From assembly GCA_937992195.1 (NCBI GenBank), contig CALKKV010000007.1, positions 21,581-85,580 on the forward strand: a stretch of 64,000 nucleotides of DNA, written 5' to 3'. Each line of letters begins with the position of its first letter. Within the stretch, counting starts at the first letter, position 1. This document shows positions 40,999-55,938 of the stretch, one piece after another. The notes beneath the pieces were generated by a model. It had not been told where the DNA came from. It saw nothing but the letters and a program-made list of their open reading frames with translations, and searched no databases. The position numbers and the translations under genes are program-made. Origin of the DNA: an uncultured Gammaproteobacteria bacterium. Its GTDB lineage: Bacteria > Pseudomonadota > Gammaproteobacteria > Arenicellales > Poriferihabitantaceae.

Positions 40999-41026
40999 TC
41001 AGGAGTTTAGTCAGGAGTTTAGTCAC
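40999..41026. repeat. 12-bp tandem duplication TCAGGAGTTTAG x2 plus a partial third copy
   Basis: Read directly: tcaggagtttag tcaggagtttag tcac. Confidence 0.8.
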
Positions 41027-41323
41027 TCGGTATCTACTTAACTTACCTTGACTTGGTTGTTTTATATTTTTACGAAATTTTCAAAAATATAATAAAAAAC
41101 AATGGGTAAGGTTTTTTGAAATAGCTATTTATATCTTGTACTCCACCATTGTAGAGTGATGTGGGTGGTTTGATAAGTTAAATCGCAAGCGGCGAATCCT
41201 CCTGCTTCACGATGAACTTTAAGTGGGCACATTACTCTACAGCCTACTAACCAAACCTTTCTGGTTTTCAACAGATTGGGCACATATTTATTGCATTGCT
41301 AACTGCTTCCGGAACCCTAAATA

Positions 41324-41770
41324 ATGACAAATTCTAAACTTGAGCCTAACCTGATCGTCGGCGCGATGGTGATTGTTGGTTTTGCGGTAGGTAGATTACC
41401 GAGTGAATTGACTTTAGGAAGGCTTGTTTTATGGTTATCGGTTTTATTTTTAGTCCATACGTTGGTGCGAGATTTGTATCTTTACATGCGTTTAAAAAAT
41501 CAAACCAAGCCTGCGGAGCGAAGAGATGCCCAATGTTTTTGCGTTGAATCCGGGGTAGGAATTCTTATTTTGATATTGGGTCTAGCATTACTAACGGCAA
41601 ATATTGGCGGTAACGTCACAATGACTAATGTCAGCTGGTTTTTTTCAATAACTATCTGTCTTTGGCTCAATTTTTGGATGAAAGATTTTGTCTTTAGCTG
41701 GAACCCTTGGCGTGTTTATCGAGATCCAGATCATCTAAATATCGTTCCACGTTTTAAAGTAAAACCATAG
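41324..41770 (+). CDS. hypothetical membrane protein (about 4 TM)
   Basis: 148 aa, hydrophobic, with a 380-bp AT-rich upstream region. I recognise no family. Confidence 0.5.
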   Translation: MTNSKLEPNLIVGAMVIVGFAVGRLPSELTLGRLVLWLSVLFLVHTLVRDLYLYMRLKNQTKPAERRDAQCFCVESGVGILILILGLALLTANIGGNVTMTNVSWFFSITICLWLNFWMKDFVFSWNPWRVYRDPDHLNIVPRFKVKP

Positions 41771-41996
41771 CAATTGAACGGAAATTTCACAAATAACTGT
41801 TCAAAAACTCGTTGCTAAACCCGTTTATATCGCGCTCAATTTCAACCGCGTATTATCTGATTGGCGTCATATTTTCTCTGCAATACAACCTTCAACTTCA
41901 GCACCGCTAAGTCGCAGAACGCTAGGTTTGACCAAAGCAAAAACCGTCCGTCATCTGATTAGGTTTTTTCTCATTTGAGAAAACAGTTTTAGTCGA

Positions 41997-42728
41997 TTAC
42001 TTATTCGTCGACTTCTGCATCAGACGTCGGATAGCAACTTTTAAGCTGTTTTGCATTCTACCGAAGCTGTCCGCAAGCACCCCAATTTCGTCTTTTGAAT
42101 TGATGAAAACTCTCTGGTTTAAATCTCCTCTGGAAATCAGGTCTGCTGCGCTGGTCAACTTTTGAAGCGGCACGATCAACAATTTGCGTAGAACTAGCAC
42201 CATAACCAGAATAATAAATATATTTAGGACAAGAAGCGTACCCAAAACACCCTGACCAAATTGTTTTAAATCCCTCAACATGCTGGCCGGTGAAACATAT
42301 ATACCTACCTGGCCAATGGCTTGTTCATCTTTGCTTACTTCACGCTCTACGTATATTAGATCTCCGGCCACGGTACCGGATGAATCCACGACCGAGCCAT
42401 CTGACAAACGCTCTTTTGCCGCAAAAAGACCTTTACCTTCTTCGTCTTGCACTACAATTGCAGAGACTCTTCGTTCCGAGAGTTCAGCAGTCAGTAACTC
42501 GCTAACCTGTTCACGATCCAGGCTCCACATCGGTAATGAGAGGTGCTTTGAAAGCCGAGTCGCCGAAACTTCAGCCAGCTCTTGCAAATCCGCTTGCTCA
42601 GTTTTCTCCAGGTACTTGTATGCCAAGATACCAGCCAAGCCAAGAATTAAGGTGATAGTAATGATAATAGTGACAATGACCTTGGTGCGGATTGTGTTGT
42701 ACCATTTAATATCTTTTGATGAACTCAT
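41997..42728 (-). CDS. membrane sensor stub: TM - periplasmic domain - TM - HAMP, with no output domain
   Basis: 243 aa. TM1 is VIVTIIITITLILGLAGILAY. A periplasmic region of about 130 aa follows, then TM2 VLGTLLVLNIFIILVMVLVL. The canonical HAMP is RKLLIVPLQKLTSAADLISRGDLNQRV..SKDEIGVLADSFGRMQNSL. The protein ends 15 aa after the HAMP. Confidence 0.75.
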   Translation of the reverse strand: MSSSKDIKWYNTIRTKVIVTIIITITLILGLAGILAYKYLEKTEQADLQELAEVSATRLSKHLSLPMWSLDREQVSELLTAELSERRVSAIVVQDEEGKGLFAAKERLSDGSVVDSSGTVAGDLIYVEREVSKDEQAIGQVGIYVSPASMLRDLKQFGQGVLGTLLVLNIFIILVMVLVLRKLLIVPLQKLTSAADLISRGDLNQRVFINSKDEIGVLADSFGRMQNSLKVAIRRLMQKSTNK

Positions 42729-42838
42729 TTTTTTCTTCCCAGAAATTGTTGGAAGCGTTGTTTCGTAAAATCTACTAACGCGTTAAAAATTAAATATAGG
42801 CTATCAGATGCGAAAGATCTGGTAGCAATGGACCCTGC

Positions 42839-43582
42839 TTACTTAAGACTTTGTATCACCGCAGCCTCTGCCTTGGTAATCAGGCTTTCTAGCTCGCCAC
42901 TATCCTGCATTGCCACAATAGCCTCGTCCACTTGCGGTACGATGTCAGCGTGGTCTTCATGGATGTAGTTATAAAGATCAAGCACCGCAAGGGGCTGCTG
43001 AATAGGGCCGATATTTTCGTACCCTAATTTCTCCAACACCAGTATTCCATCTACAGTGTTGGTTAGTGCAACGTCCGCCCGCCCGCGCTGCAGAAACTCC
43101 ATCATCGTTTCGGTATTTTTAATGTCAAATACATTGTCCAGGCCTTGAGTGATATTGTTTGTGTGCTTTACGCCTCTCACTTTGACAACTCGGTATTTGG
43201 CTAAATCCTCTTTTGTCCGAATTTTAATTCCACTGTTCTTGCGCACAAATCCCATTGTCTCCAGGTAATAGTAAGGAGTTGGTACCCGAATGGTAGTCGG
43301 GTTTTCATTTCCATAGGTAAAGATACGCATGATCTCACCGTCTTTGGATCCGCTGGTAGCTTCTTCTTGGGCGCGTTTCCCAGGCATCGGAGAGATGTCG
43401 ACAGTGAAGCCAATCTTTTTGTAGATTTCGGGTATTAACAGTCGGCCCACTTCTTGCTCAATTAAATTCTGAATCGACACAAATTGATAATCTTGCGAGA
43501 GACTGGTTCTCGGAAACAGCATCAGTAGGGCTGCTAAAACAGCAAAAGATTTTGTAGCAATAGTAAGTAAGTTTCTTTTCAA
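42839..43582 (-). CDS. periplasmic solute-binding protein (SBP_bac_3-like), orphan
   Basis: 247 aa with a signal peptide (ALLMLFPRTSLSQ) and a type-2 periplasmic binding fold pattern (RADVALTN...). No ABC permease or ATPase genes are adjacent. Confidence 0.7.
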   Translation of the reverse strand: MKRNLLTIATKSFAVLAALLMLFPRTSLSQDYQFVSIQNLIEQEVGRLLIPEIYKKIGFTVDISPMPGKRAQEEATSGSKDGEIMRIFTYGNENPTTIRVPTPYYYLETMGFVRKNSGIKIRTKEDLAKYRVVKVRGVKHTNNITQGLDNVFDIKNTETMMEFLQRGRADVALTNTVDGILVLEKLGYENIGPIQQPLAVLDLYNYIHEDHADIVPQVDEAIVAMQDSGELESLITKAEAAVIQSLK

Positions 43583-44114
43583 AGTTTTATTCCTGTCGCG
43601 GGCCCATGGCCTAGATTAGGGGTTATTAATTCCACTAACAGCATAATTGTAGTTAAACAGTACCACTCTCAATCAGCCTTAACGGATTGATCAAAGTGCC
43701 AATACAAGCGCAGGTGAGGTGGTCAATATAAAGAAAGCATCTCAAGAATGCTTAAAACTTATAGATATATTTCAAGTCGCCGCAATATTATTGTATTTCT
43801 ACCGGCGCTACCAAAATTATACCAAAACTATCTGATCGATTACAGGCCAAAATACCCCGCATCTGATTCAGTAAGATAAGCGGTGCATTATTATGCACGA
43901 TATGTATTCCCCCAATTAATTTTTTGAGTTTTTAAAATATTTATGGGTTCGACTAAATATTGAAATATACAGCGATGTTGAGCGACTGTATTTGTAATGT
44001 GTCACTCAAGGCCAGAAATCACATCAGTGGGAACAGAGTAAATTGTATCTCTTTCTCTGAGAACAGCGGTTTGAACACCGCTGTGCTATCTTCAAAGTTT
44101 ATAAATATGCAAGC

Positions 44115-52624: not shown

Positions 52625-52714
52625 GGAGAGGTGTCTGAGTGGTCGAAAGAGCACGCCTGGAAAGTGTGTGTACGTTCACGCGTACCGAGGGTTCGAATCC
52701 CTCTCTCTCCGCCA
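52625..52714 (+). tRNA. tRNA-Ser (anticodon GGA), CCA encoded
   Basis: GGAGAGG acceptor pairs with TCTCTCC. T arm is GAGGG-TTCGAAT-CCCTC. Anticodon stem-loop is CACGC-CTGGAAA-GTGTG, giving anticodon GGA. It has a long class II variable arm and ends GCCA. Confidence 0.93.
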
Positions 52715-52895: not shown

Positions 52896-53282
52896 ATGAT
52901 TAAGAAATTTCTGATAACAGGTTTTTTATCTGCGTTACTAACCTTTGGCAGCTTCACTCCGGCTATGGCGGGAGGAAAGTATAGGACTACCCTTAGTCTT
53001 GGGTATTTGGTTGGATCATTGTTCCACTATGGTCATCACCATAGATCTTATCGCCGTTCCTATCATCGTGGTTATCGTCATCAAGGTTACGGTTATCGTG
53101 GCGGCTATCATGGGTATAGCGGAGGCCGTTCTTATCATCGCCCACAGCGCCACTATGGAAATCGATCTTACTCCCATTCGGGTCGAAAGTATTACCACGG
53201 TTATCGAGGCGGGCATTCATACGGTGGCAAACGTTATGGTAACAGAGGTTATCGTCATCGCGCCGCTCGATACCATCATTAA
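52896..53282 (+). CDS. secreted Gly/Tyr/His/Arg-rich low-complexity protein
   Basis: 128 aa. The signal peptide is MIKKFLITGFLSALLTFGSFTPAMA. The mature part consists almost entirely of G, Y, H, R and S in short irregular repeats (HRGYRHQGYGYRGGYHGYSGGRSYHRPQRHYGNRSY...). This is the only one of four overlapping open frames that has a signal peptide. Confidence 0.6.
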   Translation: MIKKFLITGFLSALLTFGSFTPAMAGGKYRTTLSLGYLVGSLFHYGHHHRSYRRSYHRGYRHQGYGYRGGYHGYSGGRSYHRPQRHYGNRSYSHSGRKYYHGYRGGHSYGGKRYGNRGYRHRAARYHH

Positions 53283-53396: not shown

Positions 53397-54099
53397 AGAT
53401 GTTAATAACCCGATGACCAGGCCACATAAAACAGAATTGATCGCCAGTAAAACCAATATCGATTGCTTTCCCTTCTCCACTTTTAGCATTCAGTACGCAA
53501 GCGGGGCGATTGCCAGAATAAAACGTCGCTTATAACAGCTCGGTTAAGCCCCCAGGCAGCTCCATATGTCTGTAACTTCTGGATTATTGACTTTTTATGA
53601 CCTTTTGACTGAGAACAAAGGGGAATGCGAATGTCGCTGTCCGTAAGCCTATCCACACTTTTCCTCAGTGCGATGGGTGTTCCAATATTTCGGATATATA
53701 AGTATCCAATCAGCGGTTGATCAGGATGCAGGAGAGCGTTATACCGAGCAACACAATTTTTACAGCGTCTCCATAATAGATTATCCAGCAGAGCCCTTGT
53801 GAGTAGCTATTCCTGTGGGGTGACCTTGCATCGACGGAGAGGCTGATAGCCAAGATTTCGCTCAAGAAAATCGCAATAATTACAAATAGTTGGCGTAATC
53901 TAGGTACTTCTATTTGAATAACCGATTCATTTATAAAGAGAGAAGGGAATTATGATGCCTGAATGCTGTTTACAAGCGTCAATGAGCAAGAAGATTCAGA
54001 TTCTATTTAAGGGAAATACAGGTTTATGCTAAAATGACCCGCAAACGCTAGGTATAACTTACAAGAAGCCAAAAAAATTAGGCTCGGAGAGAAGATAGA

Positions 54100-55338
54100 G
54101 TGGGAAAATCCGTTCGAAGTAAAAGTGAAGGAATCTTAGGGGCGATCAAAACGGTCACGAATAAACCCGCTAATGCTGGTGGAGAGGTAAGATCGTCAAC
54201 CGGACCGCTTCCCAATGTACCAAAATTTCAGAAACTCGTTGGGTCGACCGGTGAGTCGACTTCATCTGCCGTTACGAGATCACAGGCGACAGATAGTTCG
54301 TCGGTTACTGGACCGGCTAAGACAAAAGCAAGTACTGTTTCCTCCGGTCGAGTTCAGGCTTCAAAAGAAGTTACTTCTGGAAGAGACGTCAAATCTCGCG
54401 AAAATGATTTACCTCCCCGGTATCAAAACCCTATTGAAGAAAATAACGCAAAGATTGAAGCGCGAAAGAAAAATATTGCTGCACTAACCAAAAAAATCGA
54501 AGCCAGAACCAAAAATATTGAGGCGAAAGCGAAAAAACCTGAACCTCAATCTAAACCTCAATCTGAACCCCAAACTGCTAAGTTAAACAAACCAAACGCA
54601 GCTGAATCGGACGATCAAGAAAATTCAGCAAGATTGGCCGCAGAACCTTCGTCACTTGTCTCGGGTAACGATGCGTTAGTCATGCTTGATTCGATTGATT
54701 TAGAGGCGAAGGCAAGAAACTTCATAACTGACAAAATAGGTCAGCAAGTATCTGATAATTTAGCGGATGTCGACCTGGTAGATATTTGTCAGCCGAATCT
54801 ATCGGTGGTCGGTCCAGCATTTAATGCTTTGAAGTACTCTTATCATCAACCTCAAATCGTAAAGTTGTATGGAAACTTAATTTCAACTGCTATGAGCGCT
54901 AAAACCGCACGCTTCGCTCATCCGGGATTTGTCGATCTAATTAGAAATATCACGGAAGATGAGGCGAGGGTGCTTTCCTGGTTTTTTAAACAGAAAGTGC
55001 TTCCAGTGATTGATATTAAAAAAGTGATCAATAAAACTCAGAGTGAGATGCGACTTAACACTCTTGTGTCGACGATTGCGCAAGATGCCGGTTGCGAATA
55101 TGATGATTTAGCTGAGAGCTATCTGGCAAACCTAGAACGCATTGGATTGCTCGAGATTCCTCGGTCAGTTTGTCTTACGGATGACAGCTTATATATCAGG
55201 GTGTTATCTCTTCCGGCTGTCCGAGAACGTATTGATGCTTTAAATAGCTCTAGTAAGGATTATTTTGGTGAAATCGTTCGCTATTATGCCAAGCTCTCAG
55301 TCTTCGGAATTAGGTTTTGTCACGCCTGTATACGTTAG
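54100..55338 (+). CDS. DUF4393/Abi_alpha-like protein with a long disordered Ser/Thr/Lys-rich N-terminal extension
   Basis: 412 aa with a GTG start 8 nt after GGAGAG. Residues 1-190 are low complexity, with the repeat KIEARKKNIAALTKKIEARTKNIEAKAKK. In the C-terminal 200 aa, VGPAFNALKYSYHQPQIVKLYGNLISTAMSAKTARFAHPGFVDLIRNITEDEARVLSWF and LANLERIGLLEIP fit my recollection of the Abi_alpha (PF14337) profile: ...L.elyanLLa.a.d......HPaFveii.qLtpdEAkiL ... nL.rLGLi. Confidence 0.6.
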   Translation: MGKSVRSKSEGILGAIKTVTNKPANAGGEVRSSTGPLPNVPKFQKLVGSTGESTSSAVTRSQATDSSSVTGPAKTKASTVSSGRVQASKEVTSGRDVKSRENDLPPRYQNPIEENNAKIEARKKNIAALTKKIEARTKNIEAKAKKPEPQSKPQSEPQTAKLNKPNAAESDDQENSARLAAEPSSLVSGNDALVMLDSIDLEAKARNFITDKIGQQVSDNLADVDLVDICQPNLSVVGPAFNALKYSYHQPQIVKLYGNLISTAMSAKTARFAHPGFVDLIRNITEDEARVLSWFFKQKVLPVIDIKKVINKTQSEMRLNTLVSTIAQDAGCEYDDLAESYLANLERIGLLEIPRSVCLTDDSLYIRVLSLPAVRERIDALNSSSKDYFGEIVRYYAKLSVFGIRFCHACIR

Positions 55339-55938
55339 CCTGTAAGAACCCATAGCCTGCCTCAAGGGGTTTGAAGCAGCGAAAATTAAAAAAAGAACAC
55401 CTGCTGGTTCGGAAAAAAGAATTAGTTTGTCAAAATTCGATCCGCTCTGCACAGCGCCTTGAAAATGATGAATTGCTGAGGCTCGATAGGCTATGTATAT
55501 CAATATCAATGTCAAGCCGAGCAATCCCAATCGTATCGTACTCCCACACTTGTTCGCCAATGAGCTAAACACTAGATATGTGTAACCAGCACTAGCTGTA
55601 ACAAGTAGAAAAAAGCTTATAGCGCCAGTTCGACTCGCATTTTCTACCAGACTGTTTCCGCTTTTCTCCTGTAAGAGCTCGATAAGTAGCGTTTGAAAAT
55701 CTAATTGCTTGTTTAATCCCATGGCTAGCGTAAATATCCCGCAAGCGAGCCAAAATAATCGAGAATCGAGTTGAATCGACAAGTATGAGTTTCCAATCAC
55801 TATTTCGATTTCTTTCTCACAGAAAAATATCCTAGTGCACATTGCACTGGATACTATGTACCCGATGGTGACCAGCCACGCCCCGAACGTTGGATCACCA
55901 ACTTGAAACATCCATCCTACATCAGTCTGTATATTCAT
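55297..55938 (-). CDS. hypothetical polytopic membrane protein (5-6 TM)
   Basis: 213 aa, hydrophobic, no family recognised. Its 3' end overlaps the convergent Abi_alpha-like gene by 42 bp (55297-55338). Confidence 0.5.
   Translation of the reverse strand: MNIQTDVGWMFQVGDPTFGAWLVTIGYIVSSAMCTRIFFCEKEIEIVIGNSYLSIQLDSRLFWLACGIFTLAMGLNKQLDFQTLLIELLQEKSGNSLVENASRTGAISFFLLVTASAGYTYLVFSSLANKCGSTIRLGLLGLTLILIYIAYRASAIHHFQGAVQSGSNFDKLILFSEPAGVLFLIFAASNPLRQAMGSYRLTYTGVTKPNSED

What the first reader, a model, noticed from the sequence alone, without database searches (positions are those of the whole stretch)
54100..55938. Abi_alpha (DUF4393)-like protein with a 190-aa disordered N-terminal extension, convergently overlapping an unknown membrane protein
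The C-terminal 200 residues fit my recollection of the Abi_alpha/DUF4393 family, which is named for abortive-infection proteins (HPGFVDLIRNITEDEARVLSWF; LANLERIGLLEIP).

The N-terminal half is a Ser/Thr/Lys-rich, repeat-containing disordered region (KIEARKKNIAALTKKIEARTKNIEAKAKK; PQSKPQSEPQ). I do not associate this with that family.

The gene's last 42 bp overlap, tail to tail, the end of a 213-aa polytopic membrane protein gene on the other strand. Convergent transcription could therefore couple their expression.

A single-gene or two-gene abortive-infection or toxin-like module in a tRNA-linked islet is a reasonable hypothesis.
Basis: partly seen in the sequence, partly recalled or inferred. 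Interest (0 to 1): 0.6.

Follow-up and report, generated by a model that had tools for sequence, protein, structure and literature searches.

The report
Long-linker Abi_alpha protein beside dead exosortase
The gene does encode an Abi_alpha (DUF4393) protein with a long flexible N-terminal half, but it is a rare, vertically inherited chromosomal variant sitting beside exosortase or polysaccharide-export genes (the exosortase is a pseudogene here), not a mobile phage-defence islet.

Summary
**Observation: confirmed.** ORF 54100-55338(+) encodes 412 aa. Residues 211-410 match Pfam PF14337 Abi_alpha (133 bits against a cut-off of 29). Its last 42 bp overlap, tail to tail, a 213-aa ~5-TM protein gene (55297-55938, -).

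**The N-terminal half is translated.**
- Nine homologues of 375-445 aa keep the frame open.
- They share a 25-aa N-terminal motif (SEGILGAIKxVT; dN/dS 0.07).
- Between motif and domain lies a fast-evolving linker (32% identity, dN/dS 0.40).
- The nearest 274-aa relatives have the same plan with a ~40-aa linker.
- So this is a linker expansion, not a new domain.
- It is rare: 4 full-length long-form clusters among ~3,200 family clusters.

**Interpretation: only partly supported.**
- There is no integrase, att repeat or defence gene.
- Synteny and evolutionary rate match the flanking core genes.
- Relatives sit next to an XrtE exosortase/CPBP protease, a VPEIS-CTERM cargo, a PEP-CTERM-type ATPase and EPS operons, or a GT4 glycosyltransferase.
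- In the window xrtE survives only as a pseudogene (53408-53928, -).
- PADLOC PDC-S47 is an untested candidate and is matched only at domain level.
- The fold matches only uncharacterised proteins.

**Best reading (inference):** an envelope-associated Abi_alpha variant. A defence role is not excluded.

The parts
54100..55338 (+). Gene for a 412-aa long-linker Abi_alpha (PF14337/DUF4393) family protein. GTG start, TAG stop at 55336-55338.
   Evidence: ORF. Pfam 133 bits. PADLOC PDC-S47 123 bits, domain part only. phrog_2232, unknown function. Nine homologues of 375-445 aa.
54086..54089 (+). GGAG Shine-Dalgarno-like element, with 10 nt between it and the GTG start.
   Evidence: Read from the sequence. 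The start position aligns with ATG in L003 and L005.
54100..54174 (+). Conserved N-terminal motif, aa 1-25 (MGKSVRSKSEGILGAIKTVTNKPAN). Short predicted helix at residues 12-20, with hydrophobic positions 12/13/16/19.
   Evidence: L13 and K17 are invariant in the long forms. 88% identity to L003. dN/dS 0.07. Helix in the AF2 model. Hydrophobic moment about 0.45. An analogous xEGxFVxxLK motif is present in the 274-aa relatives.
54175..54714 (+). Fast-evolving, Ser/Ala/Lys/Glu/Pro/Thr-rich linker, aa 26-205. Mostly disordered, net basic up to residue 150.
   Evidence: Composition and charge. pLDDT below 50 for residues 1-110 and 146-203. 32% identity with 26 gap columns against L003. dN/dS 0.40. 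Hypervariable in length and sequence among homologues.
54450..54525 (+). 21-nt (7-aa) tandem repeat, 3.6 copies, encoding KIEARKKNIAALTKKIEARTKNIEAKA. Lies within the predicted long helix at residues 111-144.
   Evidence: TRF. AF2 helix 111-144 with pLDDT 65-75.
54542..54573 (+). 12-nt tandem repeat, 2.7 copies (PQSK/PQSE). Copy number differs in a 99%-identical strain.
   Evidence: TRF. P0001 lacks one 4-aa unit. Single gap in the blastn alignment of window against L001.
54715..55335 (+). Abi_alpha globular domain, aa 206-412. Mixed alpha/beta fold.
   Evidence: Pfam match at residues 211-410. AF2 model of residues 197-412: pLDDT 91.2, pTM 0.86. Only solved relative is 3H35, uncharacterised. 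83% identity to L003. dN/dS 0.06.
55297..55938 (-). Gene for a 213-aa polytopic (~5-TM) membrane protein of an undescribed family. Convergent partner of the Abi_alpha gene in this lineage.
   Evidence: ORF. Hydropathy. No Pfam, NCBIfam, PADLOC or PHROG hit. Homologues down to 20% identity keep invariant GLNKQLDxQ, RA(S/A) and E177.
55297..55338 (.). 42-bp tail-to-tail overlap of the two coding regions.
   Evidence: Coordinates. Orthologous overlaps of 29 bp (L003), 42 bp (L005) and 42 bp (L018). No terminator-like site between the genes.
53408..53928 (-). Pseudogene remnant of xrtE, the exosortase E / CPBP protease of the VPEID-CTERM system. Divergent from the Abi_alpha gene.
   Evidence: tblastn with the intact L003 orthologue (TIGR04162, 257 bits against a cut-off of 150). 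Residues 2-115, 113-167 and 524-535 are detected, with at least 4 in-frame stops, a frameshift and loss of residues 168-523.
52896..53282 (+). 128-aa exported protein: signal peptide followed by a tail that makes the protein 60% Gly/Tyr/Arg/His. Conserved neighbour in L003.
   Evidence: ORF. Composition. 62% identity to the L003 137-aa protein. No family hit.
52625..52714 (+). tRNA-Ser(GGA), left border of the segment.
   Evidence: ARAGORN. Rfam tRNA, 53 bits. No repeat of its 3' end downstream.

Best explanation
**What it is.** The 412-aa ORF is a genuine, selected gene for a rare linker-expanded member of the Abi_alpha (PF14337/DUF4393) family. It has three parts:
- a conserved 25-aa N-terminal peptide;
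- a ~180-aa linker that evolves fast and is mostly disordered and basic;
- a conserved C-terminal Abi_alpha globular domain.

**Where it sits.** It is a vertically inherited core-chromosome gene, not a mobile defence islet. In its clade the locus sits at the edge of PEP-CTERM/exosortase-type surface-assembly loci. The order is tyrosine kinase, TIGR03015-like ATPase, [VPEIS-CTERM cargo, xrtE], Abi_alpha-long, then a ~5-TM protein. In this window xrtE has decayed to a pseudogene. The Abi_alpha gene stays under purifying selection, and the ~5-TM gene remains intact.

**Proposed mechanism (inferred, not shown).**
- The protein works at the cytoplasmic face of the inner membrane.
- The N-terminal peptide is a docking element, for the membrane or for a conserved protein surface, possibly its own domain.
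- The linker is a flexible tether.
- The Abi_alpha domain binds an envelope-associated target and so modulates envelope or membrane state.
- This fits the only phenotype known for the family: premature lysis caused by Abi-alpha of Enterococcus faecalis.
- The convergent 3' overlap with the ~5-TM gene probably reflects tight lineage-specific packing and may allow antisense coupling. The two genes are not an obligate pair.
For: **Family and fold.**
- Pfam 133 bits.
- AF2 domain model with pLDDT 91 matches only 3H35. That is the same solved relative cited for Abi-alpha.

**The extension is real.**
- Open frame against 6 and 20 stops in the other frames.
- Nine long homologues.
- ATG at the aligned start in orthologues.
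- N-motif dN/dS 0.07, linker 0.40, domain 0.06.
- The 274-aa relatives have the same motif-linker-domain plan.

**Rarity.** 4 full-length long-form representatives plus 1 fragment among 3,199 family hits.

**Vertical inheritance, not mobile.**
- Synteny pdxH, Sel1, tRNA, small protein, xrtE, AbiL, partner, sbcB, MoxR is shared with L003.
- Flanking proteins are 72-91% identical, the domain 83%.
- No att repeats.
- Core genes uvrA and ssb lie nearby.
- The best phage and plasmid relatives are only 22-32% identical. They sit in an integron-like region or as a prophage moron.

**Exosortase/EPS link.**
- Intact TIGR04162 xrtE is divergent from the gene in L003 and L005.
- A VPEIS-TM-RDRRRKR cargo lies next to xrtE in L005.
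- TIGR03015-like ATPase and tyrosine kinase lie upstream in L005 and L009.
- A GT4 glycosyltransferase lies directly upstream in the short relatives.

**xrtE pseudogene in the window:**

**Partner is not obligate:**
Against: - No biochemical function is known for the Abi_alpha fold. The mechanism is therefore inference from architecture and neighbourhood only.
- The exosortase/EPS contexts (window/L003, L005, L009) may all descend from one ancestral arrangement. The L005 and L009 ATPases are 79% identical. The association therefore rests on few independent observations.
- Two long-form contexts show no glycan or exosortase genes: L006-8 and L010.
- The gene persists after xrtE loss, so it cannot strictly depend on XrtE.
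- The mainstream family is prophage- or cassette-borne and includes a proven abortive-infection protein. It is also enriched among programmed-inversion targets.
- The full-length AF2 model did not dock the N-terminal peptide anywhere.
- The source organism is unknown, and all relatives come from metagenomes.
Confidence: 0.45

Rival explanations
1. First reader's view. The gene, alone or with the convergent membrane protein, is an Abi-alpha-type abortive-infection or toxin-like phage-defence module. The Abi_alpha domain would sense infection. Cell death would follow through membrane damage or premature lysis, possibly executed by the ~5-TM partner.
For: - PF14337 membership.
- PADLOC PDC-S47 domain-level hit.
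- The family founder EF2833 confers abortive infection with premature lysis.
- DUF4393 genes are enriched among programmed-inversion targets alongside R-M and BREX genes.
- Relatives occur in prophages and near an integron integrase.
- The membrane partner is conserved in four related loci with a conserved convergent overlap.
- The hypervariable linker could reflect an arms race.
Against: - No defence genes, integrase or att sites are nearby.
- Synteny is stable, and the domain evolves at a housekeeping-like rate. That is unusual for defence genes.
- PDC-S47 is untested. It is matched at 123 bits, against about 340 bits for true members.
- Abi_alpha-long and the partner each occur without the other, unlike obligate two-gene systems.
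- The partner has no PADLOC or PHROG hit.
- The variable part is a low-complexity linker, not a recognition domain.
Confidence: 0.3
2. The N-terminal ~200 codons are not translated. The real product would be a canonical-size Abi_alpha protein starting at the internal Met just upstream of the domain (Met-195). The upstream open frame would be accidental.
For: - The start codon is GTG.
- The only internal in-frame ATG lies just before the domain.
- Canonical family members are 250-300 aa.
Against: - 205 codons are stop-free, against 6 and 20 stops in the other frames.
- The frame is maintained in nine homologues despite 32% identity and many indels, all in frame.
- The N-terminal 25-aa motif has dN/dS 0.07.
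- ATG sits at the aligned start in L003 and L005, and GGAG lies upstream.
- Starting at that internal Met would leave only about 16 residues ahead of the Pfam domain. The 274-aa relatives have about 75 residues there, including the shared N-terminal motif.
Confidence: 0.03
3. The whole segment is a decaying remnant of a former exosortase locus. The Abi_alpha and membrane genes would be functionless leftovers that have simply not been disrupted yet.
For: - xrtE is a pseudogene here and in the 99%-identical strain.
- No VPEID-CTERM cargo is found in the 64-kb window.
- One related contig (L018) shows an Abi_alpha copy with an internal deletion and frameshift.
Against: - Strong purifying selection on the N-motif and the domain since the split from L003.
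- Both ORFs are intact in two strains.
- Long forms persist in lineages without xrtE.
- The L018 lesion lies on a 1.5-kb metagenomic contig and may be an assembly artefact. A near-identical intact protein, P0002, exists.
Confidence: 0.07

Closest known systems
Abi-alpha (EF2833) of Enterococcus faecalis V583 prophage 6, founder of Pfam PF14337 (Abi_alpha, formerly DUF4393)
   Same: - The same Pfam domain, matched well above threshold.
- The same solved structural relative, 3H35.
- A cytoplasmic protein with no enzymatic motif.
   Different: EF2833:
- is 272 aa;
- is prophage-encoded and acts as a single gene;
- has a shown abortive-infection phenotype.

The window protein:
- is 412 aa, with a ~180-aa linker between an N-terminal motif and the domain;
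- is chromosomal and syntenic;
- lies next to exosortase or EPS genes;
- has no phenotype data.

Phage and plasmid relatives are only 22-32% identical.
PADLOC PDC-S47 (untested phage defence candidate, single gene)
   Same: All three PDC-S47 HMMs match the C-terminal domain.
   Different: - The match is 123 bits, over model positions 49-261 only.
- Bacteroides members score about 340 bits over the full model.
- PDC systems were defined by embedding within BREX, DISARM or type I R-M loci and are untested.
- No such genes were seen near any member of this subclade.
274-275-aa short relatives (P0015-P0020; Ca. Poriferihabitaceae MAG and other metagenomic bacteria)
   Same: - 42-48% identity over the domain.
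- The same plan: N-terminal xEGxhhxxhK motif, acidic linker, Abi_alpha domain.
- Chromosomal, non-defence neighbourhoods.
   Different: - The linker is about 40 aa instead of about 180.
- Neighbours are ATP-sulfurylase and a GT4 glycosyltransferase, or an acyltransferase and methyltransferases, rather than xrtE.
- There is no ~5-TM partner.
Exosortase E / VPEID-CTERM protein-sorting system (TIGR04162 XrtE-CPBP fusion plus cargo) and XrtA-type PEP-CTERM EPS loci
   Same: - Physical linkage: xrtE is divergent from the gene in L003 and L005, and is a pseudogene in the window.
- Cargo carrying a VPEIS-TM-basic tail in L005.
- TIGR03015-, TIGR03018- and TIGR03007-like genes upstream in L005 and L009.
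   Different: - In the curated libraries searched here (Pfam, NCBIfam), Abi_alpha proteins and the ~5-TM family carry no exosortase-system model or name.
- The gene persists without xrtE.
- The association is seen in only a few related lineages.
PDB 3H35 (ABO_0056, Alcanivorax borkumensis, uncharacterised)
   Same: The only significant solved structural match to the modelled domain: Foldseek E = 4e-6, TM-score 0.63 on the target.
   Different: - 144 aa, covering only part of the domain, at 16-19% identity.
- No known function, so it adds nothing on mechanism.

Membership tests
Pfam PF14337 Abi_alpha (DUF4393) | Whole-protein HMM score above the curated gathering threshold | tested here: met
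   133 bits against a cut-off of 29, E = 1.8e-38, residues 211-410 on model positions 7-196/196. Also phrog_2232 at 104 bits.
Pfam PF14337 Abi_alpha (DUF4393) | Family fold (the 3H35-like fold cited for Abi-alpha) | tested here: met
   AF2 domain model with pLDDT 91.2. Foldseek top hits are 3H35 chains at E = 4e-6 to 2e-5. The Abi-alpha paper cites the same entry.
Pfam PF14337 Abi_alpha (DUF4393) | Typical single-domain size of about 250-300 aa | tested here: not met
   The protein is 412 aa. Among the best 150 of 3,199 hits, only 4 full-length long-linker forms were found, plus one N-terminal fragment. The extra length is a linker expansion.
Abi-alpha abortive-infection system (EF2833 type) | Confers phage resistance with premature lysis or death of infected cells | not testable with these tools
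   Needs plaque, ECOI and lysis-curve assays as in PMC6356687.
Abi-alpha abortive-infection system (EF2833 type) | Carried by a prophage, another mobile element or a defence island | tested here: not met
   - No integrase, att repeat or defence gene.
- Conserved core-genome synteny.
- No close relative in the phage or plasmid collections: at most 32% identity.
PADLOC PDC-S47 | Full-length match to a PDC-S47 model | tested here: inconclusive
   123 bits over model positions 49-261/263 only. Bona fide members score 338-347 bits over positions 1-261. PADLOC gives no cut-off in this tool.
PADLOC PDC-S47 | Embedding in, or proximity to, BREX, DISARM or type I R-M loci (the basis of the PDC definition) | tested here: not met
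   PDC definition. No such neighbours in the window or in any fetched locus of the subclade.
Accessory component of an exosortase E (XrtE / VPEID-CTERM) or PEP-CTERM EPS system | Adjacent to an intact exosortase gene | tested here: inconclusive
   Met in L003 and L005 (TIGR04162 at 257 and 250 bits). In the window only a pseudogene remains. Absent in L006, L009 and L010.
Accessory component of an exosortase E (XrtE / VPEID-CTERM) or PEP-CTERM EPS system | Cognate cargo with a C-terminal sorting signal in the locus or genome | tested here: inconclusive
   A VPEIS-TM-RDRRRKR cargo is present in L005. None was found in the 64-kb window or in L003. The rest of the genome is not available.
Accessory component of an exosortase E (XrtE / VPEID-CTERM) or PEP-CTERM EPS system | Statistically significant co-occurrence across independent lineages | not tested
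The available contexts are few and partly related.

The most novel reading that the evidence does not exclude
The long-linker Abi_alpha protein, with or without the ~5-TM protein, could be an unrecognised cytoplasmic or membrane accessory of exosortase-type surface-assembly systems (XrtE/VPEID-CTERM and PEP-CTERM EPS loci).

This would be the first non-defence, envelope-related role for the DUF4393 fold. It would also suggest that prophage Abi-alpha proteins were recruited from an envelope-control module, which would explain their premature-lysis phenotype.

A hybrid version is also possible: the protein would be a resident sentinel that couples the state of the surface-polysaccharide machinery, a common phage receptor, to abortive lysis.
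Probability: 0.18. Interest if true: 0.7.

Novelty: new variant of a known kind. Interest (0 to 1): 0.4.

Why it matters
Abi_alpha/DUF4393 is a widespread family (about 3,200 clusters at 50% identity) with one proven anti-phage member. Its mechanism was still unknown in 2025.

This clade is vertically inherited and under purifying selection. It sits beside exosortase or EPS genes instead of on mobile elements. That offers an independent handle on what the fold does, pointing to an envelope or membrane target.

It is also a caution: a PF14337 or PDC-S47 hit should not be scored as a defence system without looking at context.

The locus additionally documents three things:
- an XrtE exosortase caught in the act of decay;
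- a VPEIS-CTERM cargo in a relative;
- an undescribed ~5-TM protein family with invariant GLNKQLDxQ, RA(S/A) and Glu motifs.

Tried and rejected
**Structure.**
- The full-length AF2 model from a 9-sequence alignment was poor (pLDDT 48). It was used only for disorder and helix calls.
- Foldseek against BFVD gave one uncharacterised phage protein and a non-significant winged-helix hit. I therefore dropped my initial idea that the DEARVL...YLANLERxGLL segment is a winged-helix DNA-binding motif.
- PDB sequence searches with two profiles found nothing.

**Collection scans.**
- The genome and metagenome scans returned only one new locus each. No statistical neighbourhood test was possible.
- The exact-protein look-up of the window product failed. 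It translates with a leading V at the GTG start, which may be why. An identical-length 412-aa member, P0270, exists on a 197,895-bp contig.

**Partner protein.**
- The 215-aa convergent protein in L006 was tested as a partner homologue and rejected (E = 28).
- The L009 tail holds no convergent ORF.
- The gene convergent to the partner homologue in L013 is MFS-like, not Abi_alpha.
- Weak Pfam hits of the partner (DUF6328, DUF2304, E about 0.1) were not reproduced in other family members and were rejected.

**Other.**
- The literature search for XrtE/VPEID-CTERM returned only unrelated stem-cell papers.
- Promoter and terminator consensus scans were at or below shuffle expectation and were not used.
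- The divergent promoter region shows only modest conservation and no clear operator.
Full report
**1. Observation**

The two ORFs are as described. ORF 54100..55338 (+) encodes 412 aa from a GTG start. ORF 55297..55938 (-) encodes 213 aa. They overlap tail to tail by 42 bp. A GGAG lies upstream of the GTG, with 10 nt between them. In the orthologues L003 and L005 the aligned start codon is ATG.

Residues 211-410 match Pfam PF14337 Abi_alpha at 133 bits, against a gathering cut-off of 29. All three PADLOC PDC-S47 models match the same part of the protein, and so does phrog_2232, a family of unknown function. The membrane protein matches nothing in Pfam, NCBIfam, PADLOC or PHROGs. It has four clear hydrophobic segments and a fifth, weaker one.

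**2. Is the N-terminal half real?**

Yes. The first 205 codons have no stop, against 6 and 20 stops in the other two frames.

A homology search found nine proteins of 375-445 aa with the same layout. Their alignment shows three zones:
- a conserved N-terminal motif (M..SV.N.SEGILGAIK.VT..P), with L13 and K17 invariant;
- a linker that varies greatly in length and sequence;
- a well conserved Abi_alpha domain.

| Comparison with the L003 orthologue | Identity | dN/dS |
|---|---|---|
| N-terminal motif | 88% | 0.07 |
| Linker | 32%, with 26 gap columns | 0.40 |
| Abi_alpha domain | 83% | 0.06 |
| pdxH (flanking core gene) | 81% | 0.06 |
| MoxR (flanking core gene) | 91% | 0.02 |

The linker contains a 21-nt repeat (3.6 copies) and a 12-nt repeat (2.7 copies). 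A 99%-identical strain differs by one in-frame 12-nt unit.

AF2 on the full protein was poor (pLDDT 48). It agrees that residues 1-110 and 146-203 are disordered, with a short helix at 12-20 and a long helix at 111-144.

The nearest non-long relatives are 274-275 aa and 42-48% identical over the domain. They have an analogous N-terminal motif (xAEGRFVxxLKS) and a ~40-aa acidic linker. The window protein is therefore a linker-expanded version of an existing plan, not a fusion with a new domain.

An exhaustive HMMER scan of 1.84 billion cluster representatives found 3,199 family members. Only four are full-length long forms, plus one fragment.

**3. Fold**

With a 76-sequence alignment, the domain (aa 197-412) is modelled confidently: pLDDT 91.2, pTM 0.86. 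Foldseek against the PDB finds only 3H35, an uncharacterised Alcanivorax protein (E = 4e-6). This is the same entry cited in the Abi-alpha paper. The viral structure library gives one uncharacterised siphovirus protein. Profile searches of PDB sequences find nothing. The fold therefore carries no transferable biochemistry.

**4. Genomic context**

The tRNA-Ser(GGA) to sbcB segment is not a recognisable island. It has no integrase ORF and no repeat of the tRNA 3' end. The surrounding genes are core chromosome: uvrA, ssb, pdxH, sbcB and the MoxR/Bat operon.

The same gene order is present in L001 (99.4% identical DNA) and in L003, whose flanking proteins are 72-91% identical.

In L003 and L005 a 522-540-aa gene lies divergently upstream of the Abi_alpha gene. 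It matches TIGR04162, exosortase E/protease of the VPEID-CTERM system, at 250-257 bits against a cut-off of 150. In the window that slot (53408-53928, minus strand) holds only a remnant. Residues 2-167 and 524-535 are detectable, with at least four in-frame stops, a frameshift and loss of residues 168-523.

In L005 the gene between the ATPase and xrtE encodes a secreted 243-aa protein. It ends in YSVPEIS-TSSAVHSILLLMGLGALV-RDRRRKRLLVQP, the layout of a VPEID-CTERM sorting signal. No such protein is encoded in the window.

L005 and L009 share the order tyrosine autokinase, TIGR03015-like PEP-CTERM ATPase..., Abi_alpha-long. L009 carries the rest of an XrtA-type EPS operon upstream: WcaJ, Poly_export, a TIGR03016-like outer membrane protein and a TIGR03007-like chain-length determinant. 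Their ATPases are 79% identical, so these two contexts are related and are not independent.

The short relatives P0018, P0019 and P0020 all lie directly downstream of a GT4 glycosyltransferase. P0018 and P0020 also have an ATP-sulfurylase further upstream. P0018 and P0019 have an AsnB-type amidotransferase and an epimerase nearby. P0015 lies among an Acyl_transf_3 acyltransferase, a homocysteine S-methyltransferase and a TylF-type methyltransferase.

Two long-form contexts show no such genes. L006-8/L012 have Slp lipoproteins, a 2OG oxygenase and UbiA. L010 is metabolic.

No fetched context contains a recognisable defence gene.

By contrast, the best phage and plasmid relatives are only 22-32% identical. 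They sit as a prophage moron or a few kb from an integron integrase.

**5. The membrane partner**

The convergent overlapping arrangement recurs in L001/L002, L003/L004, L005 and L018, with overlaps of 42, 29, 42 and 42 bp.

The partner belongs to a real family. GLNKQLDxQ, RA(S/A) and a glutamate in the last helix are invariant down to 20% identity.

The pairing is not obligate:
- The convergent 215-aa protein in L006 is unrelated.
- L009 has no convergent ORF.
- A 34%-identical partner homologue in L013 lies between a 480-aa polytopic membrane protein and an MFS-like gene, with no Abi_alpha.

The overlap is in different frames in different loci (29 against 42 bp), and the partner's C-terminal tail is not conserved. 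The overlap therefore looks like tight packing rather than a conserved coding feature. Antisense coupling remains possible but untested. No terminator-like site was found there.

**6. What is known**

Abi-alpha (EF2833, 272 aa) is a single prophage gene. It aborts infection by phage Idefix with premature lysis, and its mechanism is unknown. The mechanism was still unknown in late 2025. DUF4393 genes are enriched among programmed-inversion targets. DUF2806 ('Belisama') is a distant relative found in integron cassettes.

PADLOC PDC systems are 145 untested candidates defined by embedding in BREX, DISARM or type I R-M loci. The window clade matches PDC-S47 only at 108-136 bits over the domain part of the model. 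Bacteroides members score about 340 bits over the whole model.

**7. Interpretation**

Shown:
- family membership;
- the reality and three-part architecture of the protein;
- the rarity of the long form;
- vertical inheritance under purifying selection;
- the xrtE pseudogene;
- the recurrence of exosortase, EPS or glycosyltransferase neighbours;
- the absence of defence or mobile-element signatures.

Inferred: the protein acts at the inner face of the envelope. The N-terminal peptide would be a docking element, the linker a tether, and the Abi_alpha domain the binding head. This would fit the lysis-timing phenotype of Abi-alpha. Because the gene outlives xrtE, and the long form occurs without xrtE, it cannot be a strict XrtE subunit.

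I give this envelope-associated reading 0.45 and a genuine Abi-type defence role 0.30. The alternatives 'N-terminus untranslated' and 'decaying remnant' are unlikely (0.03 and 0.07).

**8. Verdict**

This is a new variant of a known kind. Interest is moderate (0.4). The evidence base is a handful of metagenomic contigs from an unidentified organism, and no mechanism can be demonstrated. The locus does give a non-mobile, context-rich entry point into a family whose function is unknown.

Noticed in passing
window 53408-53928 (-): Pseudogene of an XrtE-type exosortase/CPBP protease (TIGR04162). The N-terminal ~167 codons carry at least 4 stops and a frameshift, residues 168-523 are deleted, and the last ~12 codons are retained. 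The gene is intact in L003 and L005.
   Followed up: yes
window 52896-53282 (+): A 128-aa exported protein: signal peptide followed by a tail that makes the protein 60% Gly/Tyr/Arg/His (HRSY/YRGGY-type repeats). It has a 62%-identical orthologue in L003 and no family hit. Function unknown.
   Followed up: partly
L007 1123-1686 (+), also L012 185-748 (+): An exported lipoprotein (lipobox signal peptide; no Pfam family on record) two genes upstream of another long-form Abi_alpha gene, just before an Slp-family lipoprotein. It ends in a His/Tyr/Arg/Pro/Trp-rich tail (HYHRRDPWYDPWYDPWYDPWYRPWPRRHYRHSPYHYPY). This resembles the composition of the window's small protein. It could be coincidence or a recurring neighbour.
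   Followed up: no
L005 1473-2204 (+): A 243-aa secreted protein with a C-terminal VPEIS motif, a hydrophobic helix and an RDRRRKR cluster. It is a likely cognate VPEID-CTERM cargo of the adjacent xrtE. It was not recognised by NCBIfam at E <= 0.001.
   Followed up: partly
L018 957-1486 (-): On this 1.5-kb metagenomic contig the Abi_alpha copy convergent with a 54%-identical partner lacks about 60 codons (roughly aa 214-276) and is frameshifted. This is either a second decay event or an assembly artefact. A near-identical intact protein, P0002, exists.
   Followed up: partly
L013 4346-5788 (+): A 480-aa polytopic membrane protein with no Pfam hit lies directly upstream of the distant partner homologue P0013. 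By eye it looks like an O-antigen-polymerase or ligase-type protein. This was not tested.
   Followed up: no
L003 11916-13318 (+), 1244-2122 (-): In L003, sbcB is split into two ORFs and TelA is shorter than in L001. These are either sequencing or assembly errors or real lesions. This is relevant when using L003 as a reference.
   Followed up: no
L019 (Pseudoalteromonas donghaensis plasmid NZ_CP032092.1) 7800-8648 (+): The closest mobile-element relative (32% identity) is a DUF4393 gene about 2.8 kb from an integron integrase on a 244-kb plasmid. This fits the cassette-borne defence context of the mainstream family.
   Followed up: partly
window 41000-44000: A low-GC stretch (0.38-0.41) containing a 148-aa ORF with no family hit, a HAMP-domain protein and a solute-binding-like protein. 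It is unrelated to the finding.
   Followed up: partly
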